Sequence record: MK327947.1
DNA length: 64,000 nucleotides
Reading direction: 5' to 3' (one strand)
Origin: Escherichia phage vB_EcoM_G5211
The position numbers were made by a program, and so were the translations under genes. Below the pieces are notes generated by a model that saw only the letters and a program-made list of their open reading frames with translations, did no database searches and was not told the DNA's origin. Shown here one piece after another: positions 3,211 to 28,272 of this stretch. Position 1 is the first letter of the stretch; the number at the start of each line of letters is the position of its first letter.

Positions 3211-3798
3211 CTAAATATCTAACCAAGACAAGTCAGATCCGCCAAAGATTTTTTCGACGGCGGATCTATTTTCTTGATGATATAAGTTAAAACATGGTAT
3301 CCCATGTCTACGGGCAACATAAACAGCAATTCTAGTTCCTCCCGAAACGATTCCATTAACTTCTTTCGCCCAAAATATCACACAATCTACAGGGTCATCA
3401 AGTGTCTCACCTAAGACTTGAGCAACATTTCTAGAAAACAGATTTTGCATGTATAACGGTATAGAACGAGGATTATCATAAACGTGTTCTAATTCATCCA
3501 TCGCCAGATTTTTTTGTTCTAAGGTTTGCCATGCAATCACATCATGACCGTTATGCTTGTGGTCATAAAACTTCCAATTTGGAATGAAAATTTTTCTATA
3601 ATCTGGATCGTAATACTTCATGAAAGCATTGTCCATACCGTAAGCCCCTCCAGAATGCGCTACAACGCGATTTTCTGACAATACCCTCCCAATGGTACTA
3701 GCCATTATCAAAATGTCGCTAGGCGCTTTTCTAGAGCCTATTAAAGCACATCTACGAAGTGGTTTTACTCCAAATAGATCTTGTAACTGGTCAAACAT
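3211..3798 (-). CDS. hypothetical protein, SLOG/DprA-like Rossmann motif
   Basis: 195-aa ORF with GGAGGA RBS; motif ALIGSRK..VVAHSGGAYGMD resembles the DprA/LOG-type Rossmann signature. Confidence 0.6.
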   Translation of the reverse strand: MFDQLQDLFGVKPLRRCALIGSRKAPSDILIMASTIGRVLSENRVVAHSGGAYGMDNAFMKYYDPDYRKIFIPNWKFYDHKHNGHDVIAWQTLEQKNLAMDELEHVYDNPRSIPLYMQNLFSRNVAQVLGETLDDPVDCVIFWAKEVNGIVSGGTRIAVYVARRHGIPCFNLYHQENRSAVEKIFGGSDLSWLDI

Positions 3799-3951
3799 AA
3801 TATTTCCTCCATAGAAAGCAATATCATACTACAAGTTAATAACAAATACAAGTATCCGCGTAGCGGAAGCGAGCACAGCGAGCAATAAAAACACTTCCAG
3901 TAATTGATTAATAAATGTTCGAAACAAATTTTTATTATTCTATAAGATAAG

Positions 3952-22665: not shown

Positions 22666-22995
22666 TTATAGTCTCCTGAATGGATCATCACGTAAATCAA
22701 TATCTTTTAAGAACTCATCCCATGAATGGCGGATATTGTTCTTAATTCTCCAGATAAGCGCAGGGATTGAACGCTCTCCCATCTGGAAGTAAGGATCATA
22801 TGATCCGTATGCCCAATATGCTACTACAATTCCACAGTCAGCGCAATAGTATTCTATTTCACTTGCTGGCGACCAAAGTCCATCAATATGATCAGTGATC
22901 TTGCTTTCGATGTTATGACTATGACAATCAGGGCAACGGATGCAATGACCTTGTTTATCGTAATTTGACGTTAGAGAATACTTAAACAATCTCAT
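22666..22995 (-). CDS. zinc-ribbon (CxxC..CxxC) protein
   Basis: CIRCPDC .. CADCG cysteine pairs; start overlaps the stop of the methyltransferase-like gene by 1 nt. Confidence 0.65.
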   Translation of the reverse strand: MRLFKYSLTSNYDKQGHCIRCPDCHSHNIESKITDHIDGLWSPASEIEYYCADCGIVVAYWAYGSYDPYFQMGERSIPALIWRIKNNIRHSWDEFLKDIDLRDDPFRRL

Positions 22996-23711
22996 TATAG
23001 ATCCTTATTGGCTTCAAATACTGCCTTTGCGAATCCTCGCGGGGTAAGTGACCTGATAGTCTTTGTTCTGGTTCCTTTCCCGCCTAGCTTAGAATGCTGT
23101 TTACTGTACCCTTTATTAATCTGCAACGGTTTCTTTTCTGGCATTATAAAGCCTTGTCCGGTCCATAAGCAAGTCTTTTTCGGGTACATATCACGGGCGG
23201 CAATATACTCAGGAAACGTAGGATGCTTATCATCTTCCGGCAAATAACCGCCATATTCCCACGGATGGAACATGTAATCAGGCTTACGCCACATACTAGA
23301 GATAACGCTTACAGGATTCTCTATCATGTAGGGAACTCCTAGCCATTCACCCAAATAAGCGGTTATTTTAGCTGTCCGTACATCATGAACTTGAATCAAT
23401 GGTCCTTGTTCTCGTTTCTTTCGTTCAAAGTGTGCAGCGCCACTAACAGCTAAATTGGTGCACGGTGGGAATGCAAAGATAATATCCGGTTTCCCCCATT
23501 CAAGGTCCATTGCTCTTTCCAGCCAGTTCAAATCAATCCAGGTGTTTACATAAGTAATGTTTGGATGTTCAAATCTGGTATTATACTTTTTGTATGTACC
23601 GTGGTCGGCGTCATCCGCATTAAAGCAGACTACCTTATGACCTGCTTTAGCCCATTCTAGCCCCATTATCCCCGATCCGTCAAAGTTGCAGAATATTAAT
23701 TTTTGTTTCAT
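22995..23711 (-). CDS. SAM-dependent C5-cytosine-methyltransferase-like protein (238 aa)
   Basis: FDGSGIMG (motif I-like), FPPCTNLAVSG (PC motif IV-like), MIENPVS (ENV-like), SLTPRGFAKAV; AGGGTGG RBS. Confidence 0.6.
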   Translation of the reverse strand: MKQKLIFCNFDGSGIMGLEWAKAGHKVVCFNADDADHGTYKKYNTRFEHPNITYVNTWIDLNWLERAMDLEWGKPDIIFAFPPCTNLAVSGAAHFERKKREQGPLIQVHDVRTAKITAYLGEWLGVPYMIENPVSVISSMWRKPDYMFHPWEYGGYLPEDDKHPTFPEYIAARDMYPKKTCLWTGQGFIMPEKKPLQINKGYSKQHSKLGGKGTRTKTIRSLTPRGFAKAVFEANKDL

Positions 23712-24270: not shown

Positions 24271-24284
24271 CACTTTTTATAAAA

Positions 24285-24452
24285 TTATTTGTTAATTTCT
24301 GGTGCGTTGCTAGGATAGTAACCTTCTTTAACTCCGAGGTATTTCGCAACCATCCCTACAATCTTCTGTGCTACTACAATGTCAAATTTCAGATAATCTT
24401 CGCCGTGGGTTTCAATGATATATGCTTCACATGCTGCTTTAGTCTCGAACAT
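24285..24452 (-). CDS. small early protein (55 aa), paralog A of 27551..27718
   Basis: MFETKAACEAYIIETHGEDYLKFDIVVAQKIVGMVAKYLGVKEGYYPSNAPEINK; nearly identical to the 27551 copy. Confidence 0.5.
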   Translation of the reverse strand: MFETKAACEAYIIETHGEDYLKFDIVVAQKIVGMVAKYLGVKEGYYPSNAPEINK

Positions 24453-24514
24453 TTTGATTCTCCTATTTCGTTTCGGTATGTGTGTAGTATAGGGGATCTC
24501 CCGATCCCCGTCAA
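24453..24514 (-). promoter_or_regulatory. early promoter plus stem-loop cassette (PeSL-like)
   Basis: TTGACG-17-TATACT with GGGGATC-tccc-GATCCCC palindrome in the spacer. Confidence 0.6.
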
Positions 24515-24528
24515 CAACTTTTTTAAAA

Positions 24529-24810
24529 TTATTCGTGATTAGTTTCGATATTGTGCATTTTGCACCAGTTCAGCCAATCGCCCAGATCTTTATAGTTGAT
24601 GCTTTTATCTGCTGCCATCGTTTTTGTCTTGATACCCATATGTGCGTTATGAGTAAGCATTTTTACAGTGAACTCAATTTTATCGCCTTTAGCTTTAACA
24701 TCAACCAGTTTGGTCCACTGGCTACCAGCGCCGCGAATGTTCATACCAACGATGTTTCCGATGTATGCTTCTTTGTTTTTCAGGATTTCGGTTGCTTTGA
24801 TGAATTTCAT
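24529..24810 (-). CDS. small early hypothetical protein (93 aa)
   Basis: ATG behind a cassette. Confidence 0.6.
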   Translation of the reverse strand: MKFIKATEILKNKEAYIGNIVGMNIRGAGSQWTKLVDVKAKGDKIEFTVKMLTHNAHMGIKTKTMAADKSINYKDLGDWLNWCKMHNIETNHE

Positions 24811-25243: not shown

Positions 25244-25269
25244 AAAAAAAGCCGACACTAAGGTCGGCT
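25244..25269 (-). terminator. intrinsic terminator (- strand)
   Basis: AGCCGAC-cuuagu-GUCGGCU followed by U7. Confidence 0.55.
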
Positions 25270-25276
25270 AATAAAA

Positions 25277-25585
25277 TCATTTAGACAAATAATCATTCTG
25301 TGCAATCCGGTCGGCGTATGCTGGTGTTATGTCAATCGCCAGCACTTTAACGCGTGCTTTCTTGCGACCTGTGTTTTCTCGTAACCAGTGCTCATGACCG
25401 TGAACATTTTTATACTGCGATGCTTCTTCGAAGGTACGGATCGGACCTGGATAATCTGCGTAAAGGATCTCTAGGTCTTCGGTGATGTAAAAATATACAT
25501 CATAATTACTGTTCTCTAGTTTAAGCAGAGACTTTCGGAACATTGGGAGATTTTCGCGGGTAAATTCAAAGATATTATCTTTCAT
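25277..25585 (-). CDS. small early protein (102 aa), member 1 of an H-x-H-W paralog family
   Basis: ..YFYITEDLEILYADY..HGHEHW..VKVLAIDI.. pattern shared with 26005, 26298 and 27016. Confidence 0.6.
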   Translation of the reverse strand: MKDNIFEFTRENLPMFRKSLLKLENSNYDVYFYITEDLEILYADYPGPIRTFEEASQYKNVHGHEHWLRENTGRKKARVKVLAIDITPAYADRIAQNDYLSK

Positions 25586-25607
25586 AGTATTATCCTCAAT
25601 AGTTGGA

Positions 25608-25630
25608 TGAAAAGGGGGCTTAACGCCCCC
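25608..25630 (-). terminator. hairpin GGGGGC-guuaa-GCCCCC with U-run (- strand)
   Basis: Between 25636..25923 and the RBS of 25277..25585. Confidence 0.5.
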
Positions 25631-25635
25631 ATATA

Positions 25636-25923
25636 TTAAAACAGACCTTCCTGTACACCGTAGTAGAGTTCATCGCTGATAATTTCATTAATGCGACGGT
25701 GTGCATATTCCTGATTTGCGAAGTTGTCAGCAAGTTCTACTTTAGTTTCGCCGTCATGAGTCCATTTAGTGATAACTTTACCATCTGCAAATTTGAAGTT
25801 GAACTCTTTAGCTACCGCATCGCGTACCAGACGTGCAAACTTATTGTTGCGGATTGCATTGTCGGTTTCGTGTGCAGCGTGAGCGAATTTGTTAACTTTC
25901 AGAGTGATAGTAATGTATGCCAT
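25636..25923 (-). CDS. small early hypothetical protein (95 aa)
   Basis: ATG behind a cassette. Confidence 0.6.
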   Translation of the reverse strand: MAYITITLKVNKFAHAAHETDNAIRNNKFARLVRDAVAKEFNFKFADGKVITKWTHDGETKVELADNFANQEYAHRRINEIISDELYYGVQEGLF

Positions 25924-25998
25924 AATTTGATTCTCCTAGTTAGAAAGTGTATCTCGTTTCGATGGGTGTATTATGCTATACACCCAACCTCATGTCAA
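25924..25998 (-). promoter_or_regulatory. early promoter plus stem-loop cassette (PeSL-like)
   Basis: TTGACA-17-CATAAT with GGGTGTAT..ATACACCC palindrome. Confidence 0.6.
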
Positions 25999-26004
25999 CA
26001 CTTT

Positions 26005-26283
26005 TTATAAAATAATTTTTTGATATTTTTCTATGATGTTCGTGTAATTCACATCAACCGCTAGCACCGTTGCTTCGAATCCACCGTTTAGCCAATGGCT
26101 ATGATCGTGATCGTGAAAGAAACCTAGACCAGTACGAAGACCTTCTTTATATTCGGCGCGTACATTTAGATCATCATCGATAAACAGATAAAACCATGAA
26201 TTTTTACTAGGATTGATGATACAACCTTTCAGATTCGGGAGAATATCACGACTAAGAATAAACTTATCACCTACTTTGAACAT
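26005..26283 (-). CDS. small early protein (92 aa), member 2 of the H-x-H-W paralog family
   Basis: ..FYLFIDDDLNVRAEY..HDHDHSHW..VLAVDV.. Confidence 0.6.
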   Translation of the reverse strand: MFKVGDKFILSRDILPNLKGCIINPSKNSWFYLFIDDDLNVRAEYKEGLRTGLGFFHDHDHSHWLNGGFEATVLAVDVNYTNIIEKYQKIIL

Positions 26284-26297
26284 AATATTTTCCTCAC

Positions 26298-26606
26298 TTA
26301 TAAAGTTTGACCGTTGTTTTTCGCATAATGCTTAATGCGTGCTTGATCTGCTTCCGCTGGTGATAGATTCCATGCAACCACTACAACTTCTGACGCATCG
26401 TCATCCGTTTCTGATACCCAATGGTTGTGATTCATACAGTTATTTGCTATCGAGTGAGCAAATGATTTCATCACTGGAGACGTATAATCATAGTAACGGA
26501 TTTTCAGATTTTCATCAACATACAAGTAGATCGTATAAGGTTTATATTCAGTAACCAGTAACAGACAGTTACGCAATTCTGGGAAAATCTTTTTAGTTAA
26601 TTTCAT
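26298..26606 (-). CDS. small early protein (103 aa from internal ATG), member 3 of the H-x-H-W family
   Basis: ..IYLYVDENLKIRYYDY..NHNHW..VVVVAW..; the ATG lies 1 nt from the stop of the upstream ORF. Confidence 0.6.
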   Translation of the reverse strand: MKLTKKIFPELRNCLLLVTEYKPYTIYLYVDENLKIRYYDYTSPVMKSFAHSIANNCMNHNHWVSETDDDASEVVVVAWNLSPAEADQARIKHYAKNNGQTL

Positions 26607-26607
26607 T

Positions 26608-26817
26608 TTATAATCCTCGGTCGCGGCTATAGTACACGGTACGCCATACAATTTCATGTTTCGTGTCGCTCCAGCACACGATCTCATTTACTCTTAAATC
26701 TTTGTTATCAACAAAAGATGAACATTGTGACGCTTCTTTCATCATTTTATCTGCTGTTTTCTCATCAAATACAGCACAGATTTCTTTATACACTCGATAA
26801 TCTTTAAACTTGCTCAT
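26608..26817 (-). CDS. small early protein (~70 aa), MSKFKDY paralog 1
   Basis: MSKFKDYRVYKEICAVFDEKTADKMMKEASQCSSF..; tandem paralog of 26820..27029. Confidence 0.55.
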   Translation of the reverse strand: MSKFKDYRVYKEICAVFDEKTADKMMKEASQCSSFVDNKDLRVNEIVCWSDTKHEIVWRTVYYSRDRGL

Positions 26818-26819
26818 AA

Positions 26820-27029
26820 TTAACACCAATCAAGAGTTTTTGAGAAAACCTCTATCCATTGTTGAGTATATGCGGTTTCTTTCCATGATACAATACCAGT
26901 AGAATAATGGTTTTTGTTTCCAGAAAATGACGGGCATTTTGATGCATCTTCCATCATCTTTTCGGCGAACTCTGGTTCGTATACTCGCAAGATCTGTTGA
27001 TATGCTTTATAATCTTTAAATTTGCTCAT
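26820..27029 (-). CDS. small early protein (~70 aa), MSKFKDY paralog 2
   Basis: MSKFKDYKAYQQILRVYEPEFAEKMMEDASKCPSF.. Confidence 0.55.
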   Translation of the reverse strand: MSKFKDYKAYQQILRVYEPEFAEKMMEDASKCPSFSGNKNHYSTGIVSWKETAYTQQWIEVFSKTLDWC

Positions 27030-27294
27030 AATCATTCACTACCTTATCAGCTTCTTTTGTTGTTTTTACATCAACTGCGATAACCCGTAAAGGTTCGTCA
27101 TGGTTCCACCAATGATCGTGAATATCGGCTTGTGATTTATCACCAAAGGAATCACGAATATCATTTTTACTTTTATAGCTAATGTGACCGTCATAGTCAA
27201 CATAAAGGTAATTATCGAAAATCGGCGTTTTTAAGATCATGCCGAAAAATCTTTCTTTGTGTGTCTTATCCAGCGTTGCAGTAATTCGCATCAT
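27016..27294 (-). CDS. small early protein (92 aa), member 4 of the H-x-H-W paralog family
   Basis: ..YLYVDYDGHISY..HDHWW..VIAVDV.. Confidence 0.6.
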   Translation of the reverse strand: MMRITATLDKTHKERFFGMILKTPIFDNYLYVDYDGHISYKSKNDIRDSFGDKSQADIHDHWWNHDEPLRVIAVDVKTTKEADKVVNDYEQI

Positions 27295-27547: not shown

Positions 27548-27550
27548 CTA

Positions 27551-27718
27551 TTATTTGTTAATTTCTGGTGCGTTGCTTGGATAGTAACCTTCTTTAACAC
27601 CCAGATATTTTGCAACCATTCCGGTGATCTTCTGTGCTACTACGATATCGAATTTCAGGTAGTCTTCACCGTGTTTTGCTACAATGTATGCTTCGCATTC
27701 TGCTTTAGTCTGGAACAT
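27551..27718 (-). CDS. small early protein (55 aa), paralog B of 24285..24452
   Basis: MFQTKAECEAYIVAKHGEDYLKFDIVVAQKITGMVAKYLGVKEGYYPSNAPEINK. Confidence 0.5.
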   Translation of the reverse strand: MFQTKAECEAYIVAKHGEDYLKFDIVVAQKITGMVAKYLGVKEGYYPSNAPEINK

Positions 27719-27782
27719 TTTTGATTCTCCTATATCTCGTTGGTATGTGTGTATTATAGGGGATCTCCCGATCCCCTGTCAA
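27719..27782 (-). promoter_or_regulatory. early promoter plus stem-loop cassette (PeSL-like)
   Basis: TTGACA-18-TATAAT with GGGGATC-tccc-GATCCCC palindrome. Confidence 0.6.
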
Positions 27783-27795
27783 CAACTTTTTTGAA

Positions 27796-28272
27796 TTATT
27801 TTTCTTGATGCTCGCGCTCGTACTTTTCGAAATAAAATTCTACTGGCTGGTCATGAATTGACAGCAAGCCAAAGCGTTTAGCCGCTCGCAATCCCATATT
27901 GCGCTGAATGTACTTCTGGAAGTTCTCGCGTATACACTTACGCCAGTATTCTAAGCCCATACAGCTTTTATAAAGATTGCATTGTACACACGCCGGATTC
28001 ATGTTATCAAGTATATCATGTTCCGGTTTATGCATTCCTACAACCTTATACTTCCACGACCCATCATCATTACGGGCAATTCGTCCATTTTCATCATAGA
28101 CTACCTTTGAGCGTCGCAATACTGGTTTGATATGGTCTGCGTGCCAGCGATCCCCTAGTTCCTCGCCACAATAGGCACAACGCCCACCGTATTTCATTTT
28201 CAGGATCTGGCGTTGCTCTTTCTTTGACAATTTTTTAGGTTTAGGGGCTTTCGCCCCTTCATTATCACACAT
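27796..28272 (-). CDS. HNH endonuclease (free-standing, abutting the DNA ligase gene)
   Basis: CAYCGEEL..WHADHIKP..NMNPACVQCN matches the HNH Cys/His pattern; start overlaps the 3' end of gene 30. Confidence 0.75.
   Translation of the reverse strand: MCDNEGAKAPKPKKLSKKEQRQILKMKYGGRCAYCGEELGDRWHADHIKPVLRRSKVVYDENGRIARNDDGSWKYKVVGMHKPEHDILDNMNPACVQCNLYKSCMGLEYWRKCIRENFQKYIQRNMGLRAAKRFGLLSIHDQPVEFYFEKYEREHQEK

What the first reader, a model, noticed from the sequence alone, without database searches (positions are those of the whole stretch)
25277..27294. Family of four small paralogous early proteins with a conserved histidine cluster (H-x-H-W)
The ORFs at 25277, 26005, 26298 and 27016 (92-103 aa) share ..Y.Y(V/I)D..L.(I/V)..Y.. 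then H(D/E/N)H(S)HW then (V/I)(L/V)A(V/I)D(V/I). Tandem diversification of a putative metal-binding fold suggests a rapidly evolving set of host-targeting or anti-defence effectors. A second tandem pair (MSKFKDY.., 26608 and 26820) is interleaved.
Basis: seen in the sequence. Interest (0 to 1): 0.5.

Follow-up and report, generated by a model that had tools for sequence, protein, structure and literature searches.

The report
Four-copy early phage protein family, HxHW
Four small neighbouring genes of an RB49-like (Krischvirus) E. coli phage are real, ancient copies of one uncharacterised early-gene family that always keeps a His-x-His-Trp motif; its function is unknown and it resembles nothing characterised.

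Summary
The window is a Krischvirus (RB49-like T4-type coliphage); the four proteins match phage vB_EcoM_G5211 exactly. Minus-strand genes A (25277-25585), B (26005-26283), C (26298-26606) and D (27016-27294) are significant paralogs: five of six pairs score z 7.8-20.7 against shuffles, and all four hit phrog_9345. Across 20 diverse members only H, H and W of an H-x-H-W motif are invariant. The interleaved MSKFKDY pair is also real.

- Early expression is well supported. The genes lie in the ligase-alt hyperplastic region behind sigma-70 promoter/stem-loop cassettes (PeSLs) that have been shown to work in RB49/phi1.
- "Rapidly evolving tandem diversification" is not supported. The subfamilies are old and are already separate in a far more divergent phage contig. 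Orthologs of B, C and D are under strong purifying selection (dN/dS 0-0.15). Only A is relaxed (0.19-0.53).
- Copy number varies from 4 to 6-7 between genomes.

The parts
27016..27294 (-). Paralog D (92 aa; RB49 ORF203 ortholog; phrog_15972). HDHW motif at 27109-27120.
   Evidence: dN/dS 0.04-0.15 against close orthologs
26298..26606 (-). Paralog C (102 aa from MKLTKK; RB49 ORF200 ortholog; phrog_9345). HNHW motif at 26418-26429.
   Evidence: dN/dS 0-0.10
26005..26283 (-). Paralog B (92 aa; RB49 ORF199 ortholog; phrog_17255). HSHW motif at 26092-26103, inside HDHDHSHW. This is the protein used for the best structure model.
   Evidence: dN/dS 0.04-0.12
25277..25585 (-). Paralog A (102 aa; RB49 ORF197 ortholog; phrog_9345). 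HEHW motif at 25385-25396. It is the fastest-evolving member and is truncated or frameshifted in phages JSE and kvi.
26820..27029 (-). F, the first member of the interleaved MSKFKDY pair (69 aa; phrog_8471; RB49 ORF202). Its start overlaps the stop of D.
26608..26817 (-). E, the second member of the MSKFKDY pair (69 aa; phrog_8471; RB49 ORF201). Its stop lies 1 nt before the start of C. An E/F homolog also sits directly upstream of a family member in the divergent contig L012.
27307..27486 (-). 59-aa leader gene of the operon (phrog_15082; RB49 ORF204). A homolog also precedes the HxHW array in the divergent contig L011.
27519..27547 (-). Sigma-70-type promoter (TTGACA-17-TAAGAT) with a 7-bp stem-loop overlapping the -10 box (PeSL-type). 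It is the likely promoter of the six-gene operon g59-D-F-E-C-B.
   Evidence: hairpin -12.6 kcal/mol, z -3.55; cassette type described in PMC2839356
25970..25998 (-). PeSL-type promoter (TTGACA-17-CATAAT plus a 9-bp stem-loop) that starts the g95-A unit.
25636..25923 (-). 95-aa gene (phrog_7474; RB49 ORF198) between B and A. It is unrelated to the family and its protein sequence is almost invariant.
25614..25630 (-). GC-rich hairpin followed by a T-run between g95 and A (terminator- or attenuator-like).
   Evidence: -14.4 kcal/mol
25250..25269 (-). Intrinsic-terminator-like hairpin followed by T7, directly after A.
   Evidence: z -4.09
27550..27800 (-). Upstream copy of a ~250-bp direct repeat made of a 55-aa gene (H, 27551-27718, RB49 ORF205) and its PeSL promoter. 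It brackets the cluster.
24284..24533 (-). Downstream copy of the same ~250-bp direct repeat, made of a 55-aa gene (G, 24285-24452, RB49 ORF191) and its PeSL. It is 80-85% identical to the upstream copy, 3266 bp away.

Best explanation
A, B, C and D are four long-separated, individually conserved paralogs of a small (about 90-105 aa) soluble cytoplasmic protein family. The family is confined to RB49-like (Krischvirus) and a few related T4-type phages.

Shown or strongly supported:
- They are transcribed immediately after infection by host sigma-70 RNA polymerase from PeSL promoter/stem-loop cassettes.
- D, C and B lie in one tightly packed, probably translationally coupled operon (g59-D-F-E-C-B). 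A lies in a second unit (g95-A).

Inferred mechanism:
- Each paralog is a non-enzymatic binding or inhibitor protein built on a shared beta-sheet-plus-helix scaffold.
- The invariant H-x-H-W element sits at the start of a short helix after a long, paralog-specific loop. I take it to be the common functional site for a ligand, a metal or a partner.
- The variable loop would give each paralog its own specificity.
- The unit probably works as a dimer or higher oligomer, homo- or heteromeric. With only two invariant His, a metal site could only be completed across such an interface.
- The targets are most likely host or host-defence components met early in infection.
For: Identity and context:
- The region is 93-97% identical to Krischvirus genomes and lies between DNA ligase and alt. 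The proteins match phage vB_EcoM_G5211 exactly.
- Paralogy is shown.

Coding and constraint:
- dN/dS is 0-0.15 for B, C and D and 0.19-0.53 for A.
- Among 49 unique A orthologs, 44 of 102 positions vary, yet H64, H66 and W67 never do.
- H, H and W are the only invariant residues across 20 diverse members.

Early expression:
- Consensus sigma-70 promoters with embedded hairpins lie at 27547-27519 and 25998-25970.
- The same cassette class has been shown experimentally to act as strong promoters and terminators in RB49/phi1 (PMC2839356).

Operon packing: the stop of D overlaps the start of F, the stop of E is 1 nt from the start of C, and C and B are 14 nt apart.

Structure:
- The AF2 model of B has pLDDT 86.7 and pTM 0.81. 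HxHW sits at the N-cap of helix 62-67, after loop 46-61.
- The independent model of A has the same order of secondary-structure elements.
- The family's own members superpose at TM 0.66-0.75.

Oligomer hint: a natural 203-aa tandem fusion of two family domains exists (P0055).

Ancient subfunctionalisation: the B-, C-, D- and ORF208-type subfamilies plus a g59 homolog co-occur on the divergent contig L011.

Physical properties: no signal peptide or transmembrane segment is apparent in the sequences. pI is 5.6-6.4 and GRAVY is negative (-0.14 to -0.75), so these look like soluble proteins and are not extreme acidic DNA mimics.
Against: - No experiment or homology links the family to any target, ligand or metal.
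- A conserved His-His pair would fit a small enzyme equally well.
- Strong purifying selection and stable subfamilies are not the signature usually expected of arms-race effectors.
- Oligomerisation is inferred from a single fusion protein and was not modelled.
- Two invariant His alone do not make a metal site. The acidic residues on neighbouring strands are not invariant.
Confidence: 0.4

Rival explanations
1. Small-molecule sponges. The paralogs sequester different nucleotide-derived immune signals or other small ligands, in the way Tad2 (DUF2829), Tad1 or Acb2 do. Trp would stack on a base and the two His would contact phosphates at an oligomer interface.
For: - A phage DUF2829 protein appears in the BFVD list at E 0.32, TM(target) 0.60.
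- The small size, early expression, oligomer hint (P0055 fusion) and several specialised paralogs all fit a sponge set.
Against: - No Pfam DUF2829 hit was found, even at E <= 10, for any of 20 members.
- No PDB sequence hit was found.
Confidence: 0.1
2. Miniature enzymes. The invariant His-x-His would be a catalytic dyad or a metal-dependent active site, for example a phosphoesterase, RNase or deamidase acting on a host molecule, and the paralogs would differ in substrate.
For: - The two His and the Trp are absolutely invariant while nearly everything else varies, which is typical of catalytic residues.
Against: - No match to any enzyme family in Pfam or PDB.
- The Cif-type and C39 papain-like hits would be expected to need a catalytic Cys, and no Cys is conserved in the family.
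- RB49 ORF206 has lost the first His (SNHW) yet is retained.
- 90 residues with a single conserved triad is small for a stand-alone enzyme.
Confidence: 0.12
3. Subunits of one hetero-oligomeric early complex. D, C and B, together with E, F and g59, would assemble into a single multi-subunit machine rather than acting as independent effectors. The paralogs would be structurally differentiated subunits.
For: - Six genes are packed with overlapping or 1-14-nt junctions behind one promoter.
- The neighbourhood of g59 plus HxHW genes plus E/F recurs in divergent contigs L011 and L012.
- A natural fusion of two different family domains exists.
- Each subfamily is stable and under purifying selection.
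Against: - Membership is not fixed. JSE-type genomes lack B and one copy of E/F and carry two C-like genes instead.
- This window lacks the ORF206 and ORF208 members.
- A lies in a separate transcription unit.
- Tight packing is the norm for T4-type early genes in general (established knowledge of these genomes).
Confidence: 0.15
4. Functionless passenger ORFs of mobile PeSL cassettes, with the motif being a chance or compositional feature.
For: - The region is a hyperplastic zone in which ORFans come and go by recombination between PeSLs (PMC2839356).
- Copy number varies.
- A is disrupted in JSE and kvi.
Against: - dN/dS is far below 1 for B, C and D.
- A was found in all 56 matching Krischvirus records.
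- The subfamilies are conserved in a divergent phage.
- The motif is invariant against a highly variable background.
- Pairwise z-scores are 7.8-20.7 for five of the six pairs.
Confidence: 0.05

Closest known systems
PHROG families phrog_9345, phrog_17255 and phrog_15972 (unknown function); RB49 ORF197, ORF199, ORF200 and ORF203
   Same: Direct membership. A and C score E 1e-48 and 2e-51 to phrog_9345. B and D match their own PHROGs full-length and also hit phrog_9345. They are orthologous to RB49p197, p199, p200 and p203 by position and sequence.
   Different: PHROG splits the family into three unrelated-looking groups with no annotation. This work links them, together with RB49 ORF206 and ORF208, into one family defined by H-x-H-W.
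PeSL-flanked early ORFan cassettes of RB49/phi1 hyperplastic regions (Arbiol et al. 2010, PMC2839356; Comeau et al. 2014, PMC4122927)
   Same: Same genome region; ORF192 and PeSL206/205 studied in that paper are immediate neighbours. Same promoter/stem-loop architecture, small genes of unknown function, and module gain and loss between closely related phages.
   Different: No mention of 'paralog' or 'gene family' was found in either paper, so the paralogy does not appear to be described there. D, C and B are not single-gene cassettes; they sit inside a six-gene operon with one PeSL. They are conserved core-like genes of the genus rather than sporadic ORFans.
Tad2 / DUF2829 anti-Thoeris sponges (e.g. 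ModTad2, PDB 9eib)
   Different: No sequence or profile similarity. The structural scores are not significant. Ligand binding was not tested.
[not shown]
   Same: Compact alpha/beta proteins of 76-145 aa. 57-66 residues superpose at 2.7-3.2 A.

Membership tests
HxHW family (phrog_9345 and relatives) | Significant profile match over the full length | tested here: met
   (E 1e-48 to 8.6e-4 to phrog_9345 for all four). (family HMM E 5e-33 to 9e-26 for the four window ORFs; the next ORF has E = 0.31).
HxHW family (phrog_9345 and relatives) | Invariant H-x-H-W followed by a hydrophobic beta-strand (V-x-A-x-D/N-V) | tested here: met
   The motif is present in A, B, C and D. The strand reads VVAWNL in C.
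PeSL-driven early gene cassette (Arbiol 2010) | Sigma-70 consensus promoter with AT-rich upstream tract and an associated stable stem-loop, in a hyperplastic region | tested here: met
   sites at 27782, 27547, 25998, 25219, 24872, 24514 and 24270. Hairpins were folded for 27547, 25998 and 27782 (-12.6 to -16.1 kcal/mol, z -2.5 to -3.6). Definition taken from PMC2839356.
PeSL-driven early gene cassette (Arbiol 2010) | Each gene individually flanked by PeSLs (a mobile single-gene module) | tested here: not met
   D, F, E, C and B follow one promoter with no intergenic PeSL. A follows g95 after a plain hairpin.
PeSL-driven early gene cassette (Arbiol 2010) | Transcription in the first minutes of infection | not testable with these tools
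   Needs RNA-seq or primer extension. Promoter activity has been shown only for the neighbouring PeSL206/205 and PeSL193/192 in RB49/phi1.
Tad2 / DUF2829 sponge | Pfam DUF2829 profile match | tested here: not met
   no hit at E <= 10 for any of 20 members.
Tad2 / DUF2829 sponge | Significant fold match to a solved Tad2 structure | tested here: inconclusive
   [not shown]
Tad2 / DUF2829 sponge | Binding of gcADPR or His-ADPR | not testable with these tools
   Biochemical assay needed.
HIT-type or other histidine-motif metal/nucleotide-binding families | H-phi-H-phi-H-phi-phi motif (phi = hydrophobic) and a Pfam match | tested here: not met
   The sequence shows polar residues at the x positions (HDHDHSHW, HGHEHW) and only two invariant His. 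No Pfam hit. The motif definition is from general knowledge.
KOW / SH3-like domain (one database record names a B-type homolog 'KOW2-KOW3 domains of Spt5') | KOW profile match or SH3-barrel fold match | tested here: not met
   [not shown]
Pfam T4_Y03C (PF25721) | Score above the gathering threshold | tested here: not met
   only P0052 hits, at 13.4 bits against a cutoff of 27, E 0.1; no T4 ORF matches the family HMM (best E 0.31) in about 148 kb of the T4 genome.

The most novel reading that the evidence does not exclude
The HxHW proteins are a previously unrecognised fold class of phage counter-defence or host-takeover factors. They would act as metal- or ligand-bridged oligomers, and the 4-7 stable paralogs per genome would each neutralise a different host system or signal. 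In effect this would be a conserved multi-target inhibitor array in Krischvirus.
Probability: 0.15. Interest if true: 0.7.

Novelty: new member of a known kind. Interest (0 to 1): 0.35.

Why it matters
If the function were found, it would assign a role to a conserved block of six or more early genes in a phage genus that is widely isolated and considered for therapy against E. coli and Shigella. It could also add a new small-protein scaffold to the list of phage host-takeover or anti-defence tools.

As it stands, the practical gains are these:
- Three PHROGs and two further RB49 ORFs are merged into one family.
- A three-residue signature (H-x-H-W) is defined for mutagenesis.
- A natural two-domain fusion points to oligomerisation.
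- These are anciently specialised genes under purifying selection rather than fast-evolving arms-race genes, which changes how one would screen them.

Tried and rejected
- Pfam scans of the four proteins, their neighbours and 20 family members at E up to 10 gave only sub-threshold, inconsistent hits (PROCT, TTL, T4_Y03C and others).
- A profile search of PDB sequences found nothing below E 0.66.
- Foldseek against BFVD returned only the family itself, plus one motif-less neighbour gene.
- An exhaustive HMM search of 1.84 billion representative proteins gave 15 hits. All are small proteins with no annotation; those whose contigs were read lie on ~170-kb Krischvirus-like contigs or on short arrays of the same family. 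One further hit is a spurious repeat protein, P0061.
- A family HMM run against six-frame ORFs of about 148 kb of T4 found no homolog, and the only H.HW string lies in a non-coding frame.
- Literature searches for PHROG ids, RB49 locus tags, and Krischvirus with anti-defence or accessory genes found nothing on these proteins.
- The DNA-mimic idea (Ocr/Arn-like) is rejected: pI is 5.6-6.4 and net charge only -1 to -4.
- Recent tandem duplication is rejected: no DNA-level repeat links the four genes and the subfamilies predate the genus.
- Positive selection is rejected for B, C and D.
Full report
WHAT THE WINDOW IS. The 4.1-kb stretch around the finding is 93-97% identical to 58 phage records. 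All are Escherichia, Shigella or Enterobacteria phages of the genus Krischvirus, the RB49-like T4-type myoviruses. The four proteins are exact matches to hypothetical proteins G5211_00198, 00200, 00201 and 00204 of Escherichia phage vB_EcoM_G5211. In annotated relatives the cluster lies on the early-gene strand between DNA ligase (gene 30) and the RNA-polymerase ADP-ribosylase alt. In T4 the same interval holds a single small gene, alt.1. This interval is therefore one of the hyperplastic regions of the RB49 group.

THE OBSERVATION. All four ORFs are present on the minus strand:
- A, 25277-25585, 102 aa
- B, 26005-26283, 92 aa
- C, 26298-26606, 102 aa from the MKLTKK start; the open frame extends to 26687
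- D, 27016-27294, 92 aa

Each is preceded by a GAGGA ribosome-binding site. Pairwise identity is only 25-34%, but local alignment scores are far above those of shuffled sequences. The z-scores are 10.1, 20.7, 7.8, 8.8 and 11.0 for A-B, A-C, A-D, B-C and B-D, and none of 1000 shuffles reached the observed score. C-D alone is marginal (z 3.0). A and C are members of phrog_9345. B (phrog_17255) and D (phrog_15972) also match phrog_9345, at 2.7e-5 and 8.6e-4. An HMM of the family detects exactly these four ORFs in the 64-kb window, with E of 5e-33 to 9e-26 against 0.31 for the next best. The interleaved MSKFKDY pair (E 26608-26817, F 26820-27029) is real as well: z 25.9, both in phrog_8471. The similarity is homology, not composition.

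THE MOTIF. In a 20-sequence alignment that includes the most distant members found, the only invariant columns are H, H and W of an H-x-H-W element. Among 49 distinct orthologs of A, 44 of 102 positions vary. H64, H66 and W67 (and L68, R69, E70) never change, while the third upstream histidine, H62, is replaced by Y, Q or F. The 'histidine cluster' therefore reduces to two His and one Trp. RB49 ORF206, a further family member, has even lost the first His (SNHW), although its orthologs in other genomes keep THNHW.

SIZE AND AGE OF THE FAMILY. A word-indexed search of 5.8 billion proteins and an exhaustive HMM search of 1.84 billion representatives returned 54 and 15 hits respectively. All are small proteins with no informative annotation. 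The hits whose contigs were read lie either on ~170-kb Krischvirus-like contigs or on short contigs that carry arrays of the same family. T4 has no homolog; the best E is 0.31 over about 148 kb of six-frame ORFs.

RB49 itself has six members: ORF197, 199, 200, 203, 206 and 208. Two metagenomic Krischvirus-like genomes also have six. JSE-type genomes replace B with a second C-like gene. They also carry an 88-aa neighbour with the same predicted fold but no motif. The window has four members because an HNH endonuclease gene (27796-28272) sits where RB49 has ORF206-210.

Score clustering defines five subfamilies: A/C, B, D, 206 and 208. A 2.1-kb contig from a much more divergent phage (L011) has a g59 homolog scoring 193 against a self-level score of 306. 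It already carries a 208-type gene, a 203-aa natural tandem fusion of two B-like domains, a D-type gene and a C-type gene, all behind homologs of the same small leader genes. A second divergent contig (L012) has an E/F homolog directly upstream of an A/C-type gene. The paralogs and their neighbourhood are therefore old.

SELECTION. Nei-Gojobori comparison of the window genes with orthologs in nine loci gives:
- D: dN/dS 0.04-0.15
- C: 0-0.10
- B: 0.04-0.12
- ligase and HNH, for comparison: 0.02-0.04
- A: 0.19-0.53, the fastest gene in the cluster

A is also split or truncated in the JSE and kvi records. These are real coding genes under purifying selection, and 'rapidly evolving' applies at most to A.

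REGULATION. Seven near-consensus sigma-70 promoters point along the minus strand in this 4-kb stretch. Each has an upstream A/T tract and a stem-loop between or over the hexamers. This is the PeSL cassette of Arbiol et al. 2010 (PMC2839356). They showed strong promoter activity for PeSL206/205 and PeSL193/192, and terminator activity for the stem-loop of PeSL211/210, in RB49/phi1. Those are the immediate neighbours of this cluster.

The promoter at 27547-27519 heads a six-gene unit, g59-D-F-E-C-B, with overlapping or 1-14-nt junctions. The promoter at 25998-25970 heads g95-A. In that unit a GC hairpin (25630-25614) precedes A and a terminator (25269-25250) follows it. Early expression is thus well supported by architecture and by published experiments on sister cassettes, but it was not measured for these genes.

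STRUCTURE AND COMPARISON.
- AlphaFold2 with the 20-sequence alignment gives a confident model of B (pLDDT 86.7, pTM 0.81). The order of elements is beta-alpha-beta-beta-beta, a long loop (46-61), a short helix beginning at S62-H63-W64, then beta and a C-terminal helix.
- An earlier model of A (pLDDT 75.9) has the same order of elements, with a low-confidence His loop.
- Foldseek against BFVD finds only the family's own members at E <= 1e-3, followed by a DUF2829 protein at E 0.32.
- Pfam, PDB-sequence and literature searches are empty.
- The proteins are mildly acidic and look soluble, and they are not DNA-mimic-like.

INTERPRETATION. Shown:
- a genuine, ancient, genus-restricted family with a three-residue signature;
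- purifying selection on its members;
- variable copy number between genomes;
- placement in sigma-70/PeSL-driven early transcription units.

Inferred: the HxHW element is the functional site, the paralog-specific loop in front of it sets specificity, and the unit works as an oligomer. The oligomer inference rests on the natural two-domain fusion and on the fact that two His cannot complete a metal site alone. I favour small binding or inhibitor proteins aimed at host or defence components. This is because of size, timing, genomic context and the lack of any enzyme-like signature, and my confidence is low. A sponge, a mini-enzyme, or subunits of one complex with E, F and g59 remain open. The 'functionless ORFan' reading is contradicted by the selection data.

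VERDICT. The finding is real but ordinary in kind: another uncharacterised early accessory family of a T4-type hyperplastic region. It is already present in databases as hypothetical proteins. The useful new points are the unification of the family, the exact motif, the fusion protein and the evidence against rapid evolution.

Noticed in passing
window 24284-24533 and 27550-27800: A 55-aa gene (phrog_8009) together with its PeSL promoter is present twice as a ~250-bp direct repeat. The copies are 80-85% identical at the DNA level, the proteins score z 50.7, and the spacing is 3266 bp. The repeat brackets the whole HxHW cluster. Under the PeSL mini-circle model of Arbiol et al., recombination between the copies could excise or transfer the entire 3.3-kb block.
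   Followed up: partly
window 27753-27807 (PeSL) and 27796-28272 (HNH gene): Homology to most Krischvirus genomes (RB49 type) stops at about 27790-27807, inside the PeSL upstream of the 55-aa gene. Beyond that point this phage has an HNH endonuclease next to DNA ligase, where RB49 has ORF206-210 (including two more HxHW-family genes). The module breakpoint therefore falls exactly at a PeSL.
   Followed up: partly
window 25636-25923: The 95-aa gene between B and A (phrog_7474, RB49 ORF198) has dN = 0 against 6 of the 9 relatives in which it was found, despite dS of 0.05-0.21. It is by far the most constrained small gene of the cluster, and its function is unknown.
   Followed up: no
L007 (JSE) 3501-3808; L008 (kvi) 3501-3758: The ortholog of A is annotated as two fragments in JSE and as an 85-aa truncated protein in kvi. 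This is either sequencing error or natural loss of this member.
   Followed up: no
L007 301-567 (JSE EpJSE_00215); L002 3581-3847: An 88-aa protein sits next to the ORF208-type member. It is not detected by the family HMM (E = 6) and lacks HxHW, but it matches the model of B structurally (BFVD C4MZ33, E 7.8e-3, TM 0.65-0.67). It may be a very divergent, motif-less paralog.
   Followed up: partly
L011 823-1434 (P0055): A natural 203-aa tandem fusion of two HxHW domains, each keeping HNHW. It lies in a 2.1-kb metagenomic contig that carries five family domains in four genes.
   Followed up: partly
window 24453-24528 (between G and the 93-aa gene): RB49's ORF192, the PeSL-flanked ORFan used by Arbiol et al. 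to demonstrate mini-circles, is absent here. The window has the phi1-type topology, with a single PeSL between the ORF191 and ORF193 orthologs.
   Followed up: partly
window 22995-23711: A 238-aa minus-strand ORF just downstream of the cluster lines up with the 238-aa gene annotated as DNA methyltransferase in RB49 (RB49p189) and SFHK24. I did not examine it.
   Followed up: no
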